From positions 1 to 42,267 of IMG/VR virus record IMGVR_UViG_2541047816_000004: a stretch of 42,267 nt of DNA; one strand, given 5' to 3'. The position numbers were made by a program, and so were the translations under genes. The notes beneath the pieces were generated by a model. The model made no database searches and was not told the DNA's origin. It saw only the letters and a list, made by a program, of their open reading frames with translations. Within the stretch, counting starts at the first letter, position 1; each line of letters starts with the position of its first letter. Shown one piece after another: positions 31,170 through 33,396 of the stretch. The DNA comes from a virus (lineage: Duplodnaviria; Heunggongvirae; Uroviricota; Caudoviricetes).

Positions 31170-31385
31170 CAGAATCCTTCCGGATAATTAGCTCTCCCCT
31201 TTAAGGGACCATCCCTCTTATCCCTGCGCGCTACTTAAGTATTTTTGATTCTATTCCGGCACCGTCCAGAACTTCAAATGCGTTGAAAATAAAAACAAAA
31301 ACCCGCCGAAGCGGGTTAAGTGCGGGTGCGTTGAGGATGCCTGACACATCAGAGGTGGCGAGGGATTTCTCCCTCGCCGGGTCTC

Positions 31386-31541
31386 TTACTCCTCAGGTTC
31401 GTAAGCTGTGAAGACAGCGACCTCCGTCTGGCCGGTTCGGAGTCGTACCTCGCAGAGGTCTTTCCTCGTTACCAGTGCCGTCACTATGACGGTTAAACAG
31501 ATGACGATCAGGGCGATTAACATCGCCTTTTGCTGCTTCAT
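31386..31541 (-). CDS. hokD: Hok/Gef-family type I toxin (HokD/RelF-like)
   Basis: MKQQKAMLIALIVICLTVIVTALVTRKDLCEVRLRTGQTEVAVFTAYEPEE, 51 aa, near-identical to HokD as recalled. Confidence 0.85.
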   Translation of the reverse strand: MKQQKAMLIALIVICLTVIVTALVTRKDLCEVRLRTGQTEVAVFTAYEPEE

Positions 31542-32089
31542 AGCCTGCTTCTCCTTGCCTTTCGGCACGTAAGAGGCTAACCTACATGTGTCTAGCATGA
31601 AATTGGCCTCAGATTAATGTTAAGCGTCTTGCAGGACGCGTAATGTTAACTGGGGCTTTTCTCTATCTGCCGTTGGTGTTATGCCCGAGGCAGATAGCCT
31701 CAAGCACCCGCAGCCATTCTACTTAACTACCGTTACCTCGCCAATGTGAAATCAGTCAGAAAGGCGATCCATAAGAACAATAGCAAGACAATAAATCGCC
31801 ATTACAGCCGTAATAGCCAGCGCACATTTGAGAACCAGCACCACAACCTCCTGTATTGGACGTACACCAGTCCTGATGAATATGAGGCTGTCTCGTCAGT
31901 GATTCAATACAACTATTGGGTATAGTTTCTCTGATTTTTTCTGTGGAAATGGGGCTCAACCACTAGTCATTTAATACGCAAAGTCCGATACAAGCTAACC
32001 TTCTAGTCCGCTTTGAGCGAAAAGCGGACGTTGGAAGTTTAAAACTCGCGAACTACTCAGCGTCCATTGATGCGTATTGTGTAACGTGA

Positions 32090-32734
32090 TTAACCACAGA
32101 TGATATTGAAACGTTCTCCGGAAATCTTGACCATAATGTCAGACAGTTCGCTGACGGCATGGGCTTCAGATGATCCCAGAGCGTCAGGCTGAACAGCTAT
32201 TACCGAAGCTCCACTTGCCAGCCCTGCTTTTATACCCGCAGATGCATCCTCAAATACCACGCATTCACCAGGCTCAAGGCCCAAAGCCAAAGCTGCTTTG
32301 ATGTAACCCTCGGGACTTGGTTTTCCCGTCATTACATCTTCTGCACACACCATTACTATGGGTAAGGGGAGATTAGCCGCTTTCATCCTGTTTTCTGCAA
32401 GCATTCTGCCTGCAGAAGTGACAAGTGCCCAGCTATCCGGTGGCAGTTTTGATAAGAGTGCAGCGGCCCCTTTTACTTCAGTAACGCCTTCTGTCATGTT
32501 GATTTCAACCTCTTCGAGTGAGGCCGCGATTTTATTGGTTTTCTCACCTGCACCAATAAAATGCGTCAGTGTATCAATCGTTTGCCGCCCGTGTGCGTAA
32601 GCAATCACAGCCTGAGTATCAAGACCGTATTCTGCACAAAAATCTCTCCAGACGCTTTCCACTACGGCTGTTGAATCAACCAGCGTACCGTCCATATCGA
32701 ATAAAAAACCCTTAGCGTTGAATATCATTGCCAT
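32090..32734 (-). CDS. HAD-superfamily hydrolase/phosphatase
   Basis: N-terminal FDMDGTLVDS (DxDGT) motif and C-terminal FEDASAGIKAG. Confidence 0.8.
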   Translation of the reverse strand: MAMIFNAKGFLFDMDGTLVDSTAVVESVWRDFCAEYGLDTQAVIAYAHGRQTIDTLTHFIGAGEKTNKIAASLEEVEINMTEGVTEVKGAAALLSKLPPDSWALVTSAGRMLAENRMKAANLPLPIVMVCAEDVMTGKPSPEGYIKAALALGLEPGECVVFEDASAGIKAGLASGASVIAVQPDALGSSEAHAVSELSDIMVKISGERFNIICG

Positions 32735-32757
32735 TCCTTAATGGTTGCAGAAGAAAG

Positions 32758-33396
32758 TTAATCAAACCATGTTTTTTCATCACCTTTCGCTACTCTCAGG
32801 CTGACAGCAATCTGCTCAGGCACAATTCTTGAAAGCGACAATTCAGGCAGGTCGTTGACATCAAAAAAATCAGCATCGAGTGACTCATGGCTGATTGACA
32901 GGCTGCCACCTACTTCTTCACAGAGAAAAATCAGCTTGTAAACATGCCAGGGTAAAGGCGGATGGCCGTGAAGATTACGATCCCAAACTCCCAATAGTTT
33001 AGTCACTCTGACTTTTAATCCGGTTTCTTCTTCGACTTCTCGACGCACAGCTTCAGAAGGTGTATCTCCAACATCTGCCCATCCGCCAGGAAGACTCCAT
33101 AATCCATCTGCAGCCTCTTTCACCATCAGAATACGATTATTACGCAGGATAAACGCACGCACATCTGTTTTGGGCGTCGCGTAACCCGTTTCCGATACAT
33201 GAAACAAATCATTGCGGCTAATATCAAACTGCGAACTCAGCAGTCCAGCGGCAATTTCACGCAAGGCTTCATAGCGTTCCTTGTCAAAGACGTCTTTTGA
33301 ATAGGTCAGGCCTGACTGCGCGAGGGCCTTTAGTCTCTGGGCAACAAAAATAAGCTTTTCTTGGGTCAACACTTCAGACATGTTTTTCATCTTCAT
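32758..33396 (-). CDS. NUDIX hydrolase with N-terminal extension
   Basis: Nudix box GGWADVGDTPSEAVRREVEEETGL. Confidence 0.8.
   Translation of the reverse strand: MKMKNMSEVLTQEKLIFVAQRLKALAQSGLTYSKDVFDKERYEALREIAAGLLSSQFDISRNDLFHVSETGYATPKTDVRAFILRNNRILMVKEAADGLWSLPGGWADVGDTPSEAVRREVEEETGLKVRVTKLLGVWDRNLHGHPPLPWHVYKLIFLCEEVGGSLSISHESLDADFFDVNDLPELSLSRIVPEQIAVSLRVAKGDEKTWFD

What the first reader, a model, noticed from the sequence alone, without database searches (positions are those of the whole stretch)
31752..31841. Unannotated 29-codon hydrophobic ORF with a perfect AGGAGG SD upstream of hokD
Minus-strand CAGGAGGTTGTG-GTG starts an ORF encoding MLVLKCALAITAVMAIYCLAIVLMDRLSD, a single predicted TM helix, which resembles type I toxins or small membrane regulators. 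A 9-bp-stem inverted repeat lies just downstream at about 31650-31690. It is below the ORF-track size cutoff.
Basis: seen in the sequence. Interest (0 to 1): 0.45.

Follow-up and report, generated by a model that had tools for sequence, protein, structure and literature searches.

The report
Small membrane-protein gene beside prophage hok
The 29-codon reading frame is very probably a real gene for a tiny single-helix membrane protein that sits just upstream of the hok/sok toxin locus in nearly every Escherichia prophage copy sampled; a relative is translated in E. coli O157:H7, its function is unknown, and it does not look like a classic type I toxin.

Summary
On the minus strand, AGGAGG (31852-31847), a 5-nt spacer and GTG (31841) open a 29-codon ORF that ends at TGA 31754-31752, 8 nt before the -35 box of the hok promoter.

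It is very probably a real gene:
- The frame, start and Shine-Dalgarno survive in about 140 related loci.
- Two diverged alleles switch GTG to ATG.
- The only indels inside the ORF are whole codons.
- Pairwise dN/dS is 0.18-0.49.
- The antisense ORF and an upstream extension are broken in relatives.
- AlphaFold gives one helix (pLDDT 92).

It belongs to an Escherichia/Shigella-only family. That family includes the 34-aa ECs_5710 (XECs145) of O157:H7 Sakai, which has published ribosome-profiling support (RCV 4.35 in LB).

Most sampled family members lie 42-81 nt upstream of a hok mRNA leader (A-type 107/121, B-type 110/111). Many hok loci lack the ORF or carry a truncated copy.

The "downstream inverted repeat" is the first stem of the hok leader, not a terminator for the ORF. 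I found no antisense RNA and no occluded Shine-Dalgarno, and there is no similarity to Hok, so the type I toxin reading is weak.

Most likely it is a small inner-membrane accessory protein, possibly linked to Hok. Function is unproven.

The parts
31752..31841 (-). Small ORF (A-type): GTG start, 29 codons, TGA stop. Product: MLVLKCALAITAVMAIYCLAIVLMDRLSD.
   Evidence: Frame, length and stop are kept in relatives. dN/dS is 0.18-0.49. Predicted as a single helix, residues 2-29, pLDDT 92.4.
31847..31852 (-). Shine-Dalgarno AGGAGG, 5 nt before the GTG start.
   Evidence: Relatives keep a purine-rich Shine-Dalgarno at the same spacing: AGGAGG, AGGAGA, GGGGG, GGAGGC, GGAGA.
31716..31744 (-). hok promoter (TTGGCG, 17-nt spacer, TAGAAT). 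The -35 box begins 8 nt after the small ORF's stop codon.
   Evidence: It is the only sigma-70-like site found in 31300-32150. It lies immediately upstream of the hok leader's 5' end.
31536..31709 (-). hok mRNA 5' leader, the target region of Sok.
   Evidence: Rfam RF01794, 118 bits, E = 4.5e-28. Inverted repeat.
31589..31659 (+). Sok antisense RNA. Position inferred by homology to the annotated sokW of phage 933W.
   Evidence: Coordinates mapped from AF125520 sokW (using the match offsets). This is an inference, not a measurement.
31386..31598 (-). mok/hokD reading frame. The mok ATG is at 31598 and the hokD CDS is 31541..31386.
   Evidence: RefSeq annotates the identical hokD in 99.8%-identical genomes.
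32006..32029 (-). 9-bp-stem hairpin (GTCCGCTTT / AAAGCGGAC) at the left edge of the conserved module of hairpin, spacer, small ORF and hok. Variable cargo lies upstream of it.
   Evidence: In about 100 of 144 ORF-bearing loci, homology to the window begins at 32019-32035. Sequence.

Best explanation
The ORF is a genuine protein-coding gene for a 29-residue, single-helix inner-membrane protein.

Family. It is the 'A-type' allele of a small protein family found only in Escherichia and Shigella. The 'B-type' allele is the 34-aa ECs_5710 (XECs145) of E. coli O157:H7 Sakai prophage Sp6.

Location. The gene lies in the early-right (replication/nin) region of a Qin/DicA-type lambdoid prophage. It sits at the right-hand edge of a variable cargo slot, which here holds NUDIX and HAD genes. 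It ends 8 nt before the -35 box of the hok/sok promoter.

Shown:
- The ORF, its Shine-Dalgarno and its start codon are conserved.
- It is under purifying selection at the protein level.
- Nearly all sampled copies lie next to hok.
- A homologue is translated in growing cells.

Inferred:
- It is translated from read-through of the upstream early or cargo transcript, or from a weak local promoter.
- It inserts into the inner membrane, probably N-out/C-in. This is judged from the acidic N-tail and the Arg-containing C-tail of the B-type.
- It acts through helix-helix packing, with small residues spaced every 3-4 positions and an invariant Tyr-Cys-Leu core. It behaves as a membrane-embedded accessory or modulator, not as a silenced toxin.

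Open question. Because the family is hardly ever seen away from hok, while hok often occurs without it, my leading guess is that its partner or context is Hok itself, for example tuning Hok insertion or toxicity during prophage life. I give that about 0.25. It is about equally likely that it is an independent small membrane 'moron' kept beside hok only by tight physical linkage.
For: Sequence and conservation:
- ORF, Shine-Dalgarno and spacing are as described.
- The region is present at 80% coverage or more in 1835 of 5426 complete E. coli genomes and in 4 sequenced phages.
- The same frame and stop are kept in 14 of 15 BLAST-selected loci and in more than 120 IMG/VR prophage contigs.
- GTG becomes ATG in two diverged alleles, the pINV type and the L184 type.
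- The only indels inside the ORF are one-codon events. One-nucleotide indels and an in-frame TGA occur just upstream.

Selection:
- 21 synonymous against 22 non-synonymous variants, where a synonymous fraction of 0.30 is expected (p = 0.007). No such excess appears in the other frames, apart from a smaller rise in the antisense frame that shares the wobble positions.
- Nei-Gojobori omega is 0.18 for window vs pINV (p = 0.004). For pINV vs B-type, pS is 0.77 and pN is 0.28 (p = 0.002).

Homology and position:
- B-type homologues show 47-54% amino-acid identity, with bridging intermediates, and occupy the same slot.
- A-type: 107 of 121 loci have the hok leader 35-42 nt after the stop. B-type: 110 of 111 have it 74-81 nt after the stop. 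A further variant is also next to hok.

Translation of the homologue:
- XECs145 in Sakai has RIBOseq RPKM 346, RCV 4.35 and coverage 0.99 in LB, and was classed 'real' and 'inner membrane' (PMC5597208 S2/S3 Tables).
- It is now annotated as ECs_5710 directly upstream of mok/hok.

Structure:
- AlphaFold predicts a single helix over residues 2-29, pLDDT 92.4. The hydrophobicity score is 2.58.
Against: - There is no direct expression or translation data for this allele. The Ribo-seq evidence concerns a homologue with 47-54% identity. Its published ORF call (54 aa) also covers upstream sequence, and multi-mapping among the Sakai prophages was not checked.
- The family is narrow and young. An exhaustive profile search of 1.84 billion representative proteins gave only 22 hits, all from the same family. 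The selection statistics therefore rest on few substitutions, and part of the sample was ascertained with a coding-aware pattern. For codons outside that pattern, p is only 0.06.
- The gene is dispensable. In hok-anchored loci, foreign DNA joins inside the ORF at six or more different positions. About 20% of such loci keep only the 3' end, and about 45% (the 933W type, plus K-12 Qin) lack it entirely.
- The strongly conserved 3' end also lies just upstream of the hok -35 box, so some of that conservation could be constraint on promoter DNA.
- No partner, phenotype or promoter has been demonstrated.
Confidence: 0.72

Rival explanations
1. It is a self-standing membrane toxin of the type I kind: a hydrophobic peptide whose translation is normally repressed by an antisense RNA and which damages the membrane when expressed.
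For: - It is 29 aa, very hydrophobic and a single helix, similar in size to TisB and ZorO (own knowledge).
- It lies next to a bona fide type I system.
- It is on a prophage.
Against: - No Rfam family and no antisense promoter lie over or beside the ORF.
- Sok maps about 90 nt away, on the far side of the hok promoter.
- The Shine-Dalgarno is perfect and is not held in a significantly stable fold (z = -1.4 and -0.4).
- The homologue is among the better-translated novel ORFs in exponentially growing Sakai cells (RCV 4.35).
- There is no similarity to Hok/Gef or any toxin model.
Confidence: 0.1
2. It is not a functional gene. It is a chance or decaying ORF that persists because it is physically welded to the hok promoter and has had little time to diverge. 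The conservation reflects hitch-hiking and constraint on promoter DNA.
For: - Distribution is narrow, Escherichia and Shigella only.
- The ORF is truncated at many different junctions, or absent, in a large share of hok loci.
- PGAP usually does not call it.
- The part nearest the hok -35 box is the most conserved.
- The selection signal is only borderline in the unbiased codons (p = 0.06).
Against: - Synonymous sites between the old alleles are saturated while the protein is kept (pS 0.77 against pN 0.28).
- The B-type keeps the LM(D/E)RL tail with different codons, 32 nt further from the promoter.
- GTG/ATG start switches and whole-codon indels are seen.
- The Shine-Dalgarno is kept in every allele.
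- The antisense frame and the upstream extension do decay: stops or lost starts in at least 22 of 75 loci.
- There is Ribo-seq signal on the homologue.
Confidence: 0.13
3. The region acts as RNA or DNA rather than as protein. Possibilities are a structured 5' extension or upstream promoter element of hok, or a small RNA.
For: - It lies directly upstream of the hok promoter.
- Read-through transcripts would carry it as a 5' extension of the hok mRNA (inference).
- The 3' fragment is retained in truncated loci.
Against: - There is no Rfam hit over 31745-31900.
- Folding energy does not differ from shuffled sequences.
- The substitution pattern is codon-phased in exactly one frame.
- hok loci function without it in phage 933W and on plasmids. 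Plasmid R1 hok/sok has no such element (own knowledge).
Confidence: 0.05

Closest known systems
ECs_5710 / XECs145 (E. coli O157:H7 Sakai, prophage Sp6; RefSeq WP_001278460.1-type 34-aa 'hypothetical protein')
   Same: - It is homologous: 47-54% identity, a shared ALA(I/V).AV..(I/V)YCL...LM(D/E)RL core, and intermediates that bridge the two types.
- It has the same single helix.
- It occupies the same slot directly upstream of the hok promoter in a lambdoid prophage.
- Its translation is supported by RIBOseq (PMC5597208).
   Different: - It has an acidic 5-residue N-terminal extension (MSDDI).
- It uses an ATG start.
- Its stop is 74-81 nt from the hok leader, against 42 nt here.
- The nucleotide sequences are too diverged for blastn to align.
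- Its function is equally unknown.
Type I toxins (Hok/Gef, TisB, ZorO, Ldr, Ibs, ShoB)
   Same: A small, hydrophobic, single-helix, membrane-directed peptide on a mobile element.
   Different: - No cognate antisense RNA was found.
- It has a strong, accessible Shine-Dalgarno.
- Its homologue is translated during normal growth.
- No sequence or profile similarity was detected.
Small inner-membrane modulators of larger proteins (AcrZ, MgrB, MgtS, KdpF, CydX; a functional class, recalled from own knowledge)
   Same: It is 50 aa or shorter, has one transmembrane helix with a face of small residues, and is expressed in growing cells.
   Different: It is prophage-borne, restricted to one genus, and has no known partner. 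This is a resemblance in kind, not homology.
Mok (modulator of killing), the leader reading frame of hok
   Same: A short reading frame upstream of hok on the same strand.
   Different: Mok lies inside the hok mRNA and overlaps hok, so that its translation is coupled to hok's. This ORF ends 42 nt before the hok mRNA 5' end, upstream of the hok promoter.

Membership tests
ECs_5710/XECs145 small-protein family (uncharacterised, hok-adjacent) | Full-length sequence similarity with the conserved (I/V)YCL...LM(D/E)RL core. | tested here: met
   - A joint profile retrieves both types at E = 1e-10 to 1e-15 among 5.8 billion sequences.
- Pairwise BLASTP gives E = 1e-5.
- Bridging sequences are P0091 and P0094.
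- The alignment has 7 invariant columns.
ECs_5710/XECs145 small-protein family (uncharacterised, hok-adjacent) | Located immediately upstream of a hok/sok promoter in a lambdoid prophage. | tested here: met
   - In the window, the stop at 31752 lies 8 nt from the -35 box.
- A-type: 107 of 121 loci. B-type: 110 of 111 loci.
- Also seen in Sakai and in L352.
ECs_5710/XECs145 small-protein family (uncharacterised, hok-adjacent) | Translated in vivo. | not testable with these tools
   Evidence exists only for the B-type homologue in Sakai (PMC5597208). There are no data for this allele.
Type I toxin-antitoxin toxin | Small hydrophobic membrane peptide. | tested here: met
   The 19-residue Kyte-Doolittle mean is 2.58. 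AlphaFold predicts a helix over residues 2-29.
Type I toxin-antitoxin toxin | Cognate antisense or overlapping small-RNA antitoxin. | tested here: inconclusive
   No Rfam family and no promoter-like site lie on the opposite strand over 31745-31900. Sok maps elsewhere. The absence of a consensus match does not exclude a novel small RNA.
Type I toxin-antitoxin toxin | Translation kept off in growing cells (occluded Shine-Dalgarno or a stable mRNA fold). | tested here: not met
   The fold z-scores are -1.4 and -0.4. The homologue has RCV 4.35 in LB.
Type I toxin-antitoxin toxin | Toxic on over-expression. | not testable with these tools
   This needs an induction experiment.
Hok/Gef (Pfam PF01848) | Match to the Hok/Gef profile or to Hok sequence. 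| tested here: not met
   There is no Pfam hit at E of 10 or below. BLASTP against the window's own HokD finds no alignment.
Mok-type leader ORF of hok | Lies within the hok mRNA and overlaps the hok start, allowing translational coupling. | tested here: not met
   The ORF ends at 31752. The hok leader starts at 31709 and its promoter is at 31744-31716.
Small inner-membrane modulator proteins (functional class) | 50 aa or shorter, with a single transmembrane helix. | tested here: met
Small inner-membrane modulator proteins (functional class) | A defined larger membrane-protein partner. | not testable with these tools
   This needs pull-down or two-hybrid experiments.

The most novel reading that the evidence does not exclude
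The family is a dedicated third component of prophage hok/sok loci. In this reading it is a small membrane protein, encoded just upstream of the hok promoter, that physically modulates Hok. It might damp or time Hok insertion or pore formation during lysogeny or induction, or confer allele-specific immunity. That would explain why it is almost never found away from hok, while hok can exist without it.
Probability: 0.2. Interest if true: 0.6.

Novelty: new member of a known kind. Interest (0 to 1): 0.36.

Why it matters
hok/sok is the textbook type I toxin-antitoxin system and has been treated as a self-contained unit of hok, mok and sok. This work shows that a conserved small membrane-protein gene, translated at least in its Sakai homologue, sits against the hok promoter in about a third of complete E. 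coli genomes (1835 of 5426). It also occurs as a relic on Shigella virulence plasmids. NCBI's annotation pipeline usually skips it.

If the protein works with Hok, it would add a protein component to a system thought to be regulated only by RNA. If it does not, it is still one more validated case for the catalogue of prophage small membrane proteins, and a concrete example of inconsistent small-ORF annotation. Either way the claim can be tested with one point mutant and one tagged construct.

Tried and rejected
- Family libraries. Pfam, NCBIfam, PHROGs and PADLOC gave no meaningful hit for A- or B-type peptides.
I worked round this with a concatenated query and with an alignment headed by an N-extended B-type sequence.
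- Longer ORF. A 68-aa form appears in some gene calls. I rejected it because the window has an in-frame TGA and a 1-nt indel upstream, and the extension differs between loci.
- Antisense ORF. The 59-aa ORF at 31746-31925 (+), called as CDS in phage HannyBb, has stop codons or lost start codons in at least 22 of 75 loci.
- Structured RNA or small RNA. There is no Rfam hit and no significant folding z-score.
- Relation to Hok. None was found.
- Small hydrophobic ORF upstream of 933W-type hok. This turned out to be the C-terminal part of the 156-aa L0139, with no similarity to this family.
- Other genera. The GTDB species scan found only Escherichia ruysiae, Shigella flexneri and three short contigs filed under non-Escherichia MAG bins, which I take to be misbinned. 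The exhaustive profile search found 22 proteins, all of the same family; the six looked up by source were all E. coli.
- Literature. Searches by peptide string, locus tag and topic found nothing on function.
- Own promoter. A candidate TTGAAT, 17-nt spacer, CATATT lies at about 31907-31879, found by eye. It scores 8 of 12, below the scan threshold, and is removed by the cargo junctions at 31884 and 31867 in some loci that keep the ORF. I therefore do not rely on it.
- Other AGGAGG-led short ORFs in the window (17606 and 41167) lie inside larger genes or have no support.

Full report
**1. The observation**

AGGAGG lies at 31852-31847, followed by TTGTG, a GTG at 31841, 29 sense codons and a TGA at 31754-31752. 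The product is (M)LVLKCALAITAVMAIYCLAIVLMDRLSD.

An in-frame GTG three bases upstream (31844) is too close to the Shine-Dalgarno and is GTC in many relatives, so 31841 is the start.

Within the 42-kb window only six AGGAGG motifs are followed by a start codon at 4-9 nt. Only 4 of 255 ORFs of 25-40 codons are as hydrophobic; this ORF's 19-residue Kyte-Doolittle mean is 2.58. The combination is therefore unlikely to be chance.

**2. Surroundings**

The window is 99.8% identical to E. coli chromosomal prophages of the Qin/DicA type. The gene order there is dicA, dicC, ydaT-like, O, DUF977, NUDIX, HAD, hokD, rem, ydfU and Q, all on the window's minus strand.

- Rfam's sok/hok-leader model matches 31709..31536 at 118 bits.
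- The only sigma-70-like site in the region is TTGGCG, 17-nt spacer, TAGAAT at 31744..31716.
- The small ORF therefore ends 8 nt before the hok -35 box and 42 nt before the hok mRNA 5' end.
It is the first stem of that hok leader, not a terminator for the ORF.
- By homology to the annotated sokW of phage 933W, Sok maps to about 31589-31659 on the plus strand and does not reach the ORF.

**3. Distribution and the cargo slot**

- The 171-nt ORF region occurs at 80% coverage or more in 1835 of 5426 complete E. coli genomes. It is unannotated in every full-length match listed.
- It also occurs in four sequenced phages: mEp460_ev081, Evi, Tritos and HannyBb.
- The genes upstream of it differ from locus to locus. 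They include NUDIX+HAD, a YobI NTPase, QueH, a SEC-C protein, IS1, other hypothetical proteins, or DUF977 directly.
- In about 100 of 144 ORF-bearing loci, homology to the window starts at a hairpin at 32029-32006.
- The ORF therefore belongs to the conserved right-hand flank (hairpin, spacer, ORF, hok) of a variable cargo slot.
- In K-12 Qin the cargo is relBE, and it cuts right up to hokD, so K-12 lacks the ORF at this locus.

**4. Is it a gene?**

*Frame conservation.* Fourteen of 15 BLAST-selected loci keep the frame, length and stop. So do more than 120 IMG/VR prophage contigs.

*Diverged alleles.*
- The Shigella pINV allele is MLVLKGTLAIAAVMTIYCLIVVLMERFSD. It is 75% identical at the nucleotide level and has an ATG start behind AGGAGG.
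- The L184-type allele is MLVLKCSLTIAVVRAIYCSVILMDRLSD. It has an ATG start, GGAGGC, and a deletion of exactly one codon.
- The L352 allele is MLAALKGFVAILAVVAIYCLVVVLMDRLSD. It has an insertion of exactly one codon.

*Contrast with flanking and alternative frames.*
- The sequence just upstream carries a 1-nt indel and, in the window, an in-frame TGA. The 68-aa extended calls seen in some records are therefore not conserved.
- The antisense 59-aa ORF has stops or lost starts in at least 22 of 75 loci.

*Substitution pattern.*
- Across 33 haplotypes there are 21 synonymous and 22 non-synonymous variants, against an expected synonymous fraction of 0.30 (p = 0.007).
- None of the other five frames shows such an excess, apart from a smaller rise in the antisense frame that shares the wobble positions.
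- Restricted to codons outside the ascertainment pattern, p is 0.06. The population-level signal is therefore modest.
- Pairwise Nei-Gojobori estimates are clearer. Window vs pINV gives omega 0.18 (p = 0.004). pINV vs B-type gives pS 0.77 and pN 0.28 (p = 0.002).

*RNA and structure.* RNA folding of the region does not differ from shuffled sequences. AlphaFold2 on the family alignment gives one helix over residues 2-29, mean pLDDT 92.4.

**5. The family**

A tblastn search of plasmids turned up a RefSeq-annotated 34-aa 'hypothetical protein', WP_001278460.1, with sequence MSDDISLVMEGALAVIAVVGVYCLVVFLMERLGN. It occupies the same slot upstream of hokD and sits behind GGGAGGG.

- This B-type is 47-54% identical to the window's A-type.
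- The two are bridged by intermediates such as MSEDILLAMEGALAVAAVMAIYCLVVFLIDRSGG.
- The identical A-type peptide is already in GenBank as 'hypothetical/membrane protein' (OSK45992.1, EGI50483.1). Close A-type variants are also deposited, including ACT39199.1 of REL606 and one RefSeq 'MULTISPECIES' entry.
- No curated family covers it.
- The family is narrow. A GTDB species scan found only E. ruysiae, S. flexneri and three short contigs filed under non-Escherichia MAG bins, which I take to be misbinned.
- An exhaustive profile search of 1.84 billion representative proteins found 22 hits, all of this family; the six looked up by source were all E. coli.

**6. Experimental support from the literature**

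Hücker et al. 2017 (PLoS One, PMC5597208) list the B-type of O157:H7 Sakai as novel gene XECs145.

| Condition | RNA RPKM | RIBOseq RPKM | RCV | Coverage |
|---|---|---|---|---|
| LB | 79.1 | 346.1 | 4.35 | 0.99 |
| BHI control | 121.3 | 150.1 | 1.14 | 0.84 |
| BHI cold/osmotic stress | 73.3 | 1.1 | 0.01 | 0.37 |

- It was predicted to be an inner-membrane protein and was classed 'real' by their classifier.
- In the current Sakai record it is ECs_5710, directly upstream of mok/hok (ECs_1520) in prophage Sp6.
- Caveats: their ORF call is an N-extended 54-aa form, and I did not check for multi-mapping among the Sakai prophages.

**7. Link to hok**

- Of 121 A-type loci with enough flank, 107 have the hok leader 35-42 nt after the stop. 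The rest are one deletion lineage and the pINV relic.
- Of 111 B-type loci, 110 have the hok leader 74-81 nt after the stop.
- The reverse does not hold. In a hok-leader-anchored sample, roughly one third of loci carry the intact ORF. This is an approximate figure: 26 of the first 80 loci listed were also in the ORF scan.
- About 20% keep only its 3' end, joined to foreign DNA at six or more different positions inside the ORF. About 45% (the 933W type) diverge at the hok -10 box.
- The ORF is therefore dispensable for hok, but it is hardly ever seen without hok.
- The hok leader downstream of the A-type window and of the one B-type locus I read (L229) is nearly identical, while the ORFs are saturated at synonymous sites. 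Two old alleles have therefore each stayed beside hok. This fits either a functional tie or very tight physical linkage with hok acting as a recombination arm.

**8. Mechanism**

*Shown.* This is a conserved coding ORF with a strong Shine-Dalgarno. It encodes one hydrophobic helix. Nearly all sampled copies lie next to hok. A homologue is translated in growing cells.

*Inferred.*
- It is expressed from read-through of the early or cargo transcript, or from a weak local promoter.
- It inserts into the inner membrane.
- It acts by helix packing. Small residues recur every 3-4 positions, Tyr-Cys-Leu is invariant, and the juxtamembrane motif (D/E)R is conserved.

*Type I toxin reading.* It is weakened by five points:
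- No antisense RNA or antisense promoter was found.
- The Shine-Dalgarno is accessible.
- The homologue is well translated.
- There is no similarity to Hok.
- The ORF lies outside the hok mRNA, so it is not a Mok-like coupling frame.

*Estimates.* I put about 0.72 on 'real small membrane-protein gene of the ECs_5710 family'. Within that, I put about 0.25 on a Hok-linked role and about the same on an unrelated accessory role. I put 0.10 on a toxin, 0.13 on a non-functional ORF and 0.05 on an RNA or DNA element.

**9. Novelty and verdict**

The ORF is real. The peptide itself is already deposited, and a homologue was flagged by ribosome profiling in 2017, so the gene is not new. No function, family description or note of its near-constant hok adjacency turned up in the literature I could search.

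It is a new, well-supported member of the known kind 'prophage small membrane proteins'. There is a modest chance that it is a protein component of hok/sok loci. Interest is moderate.

Noticed in passing
L229 2370-2447; also L148, L157, L165 and L218 (ends 41 nt before the hok leader): There is a second, different family of small hydrophobic ORFs, with sequences MSRPDAFAGVAIAIAFLVYVICRWG and MTWPEAFTTVGIALAVALVVYSICRWG. In L229 its ATG overlaps the stop of the upstream 187-aa gene (ATGA), and it sits immediately before the B-type ORF. In other loci it takes the slot next to hok. It has no family hit.
   Followed up: partly
window 32090-33396 (-) and the equivalent position in L004-L015, L227: The slot between the replication/DUF977 genes and the small-ORF-plus-hok module is a variable cargo site. 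It holds NUDIX+HAD here. Elsewhere it holds a YobI P-loop NTPase, QueH, a SEC-C protein, IS1, or relBE (in K-12). The window's NUDIX protein matches the PADLOC candidate defence model PDC-S07 at E = 6.6e-10.
   Followed up: partly
L228 (pWR501, NC_002698.1 220153-220239) and 133 other Shigella/EIEC virulence plasmids: An intact diverged copy of the small ORF (ATG start, AGGAGG) lies 294 nt upstream of icsP. It is followed by a degenerate hok promoter and leader stub. The peptide is 100% identical in 134 plasmid records. This prophage relic sits inside the long icsP upstream region.
   Followed up: partly
window 32006-32029: A perfect 9-bp-stem hairpin (GTCCGCTTT-TCGCTC-AAAGCGGAC) with no U-tract marks the point where homology between cargo-variant loci begins. 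It could be a recombination boundary or a factor-dependent terminator.
   Followed up: no
hok-anchored IMG/VR loci, e.g. L015, L160, L184, L221, L222: Foreign DNA joins the hok module at six or more different positions inside the small ORF (codons about 16-24). Another join lies at the hok -10 box (933W type), and in K-12 Qin relE abuts hokD directly. The right edge of the cargo slot is therefore ragged, which suggests illegitimate rather than site-specific exchange.
   Followed up: partly
window 31296-31377 (-): There is a sub-threshold Rfam match to isrK (25.6 bits against a gathering score of 50) over the two hairpins just after the hokD stop. This is most likely the hok mRNA 3' fold-back and terminator region, not an IsrK homologue.
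   Followed up: no
L003 2954-3243 (phage HannyBb CDS0048 and CDS0049): The HannyBb annotation calls two 'hypothetical proteins' on the strand opposite to the small ORF. That antisense frame is broken in many related loci, so these calls are probably spurious while the real small gene is missed.
   Followed up: yes
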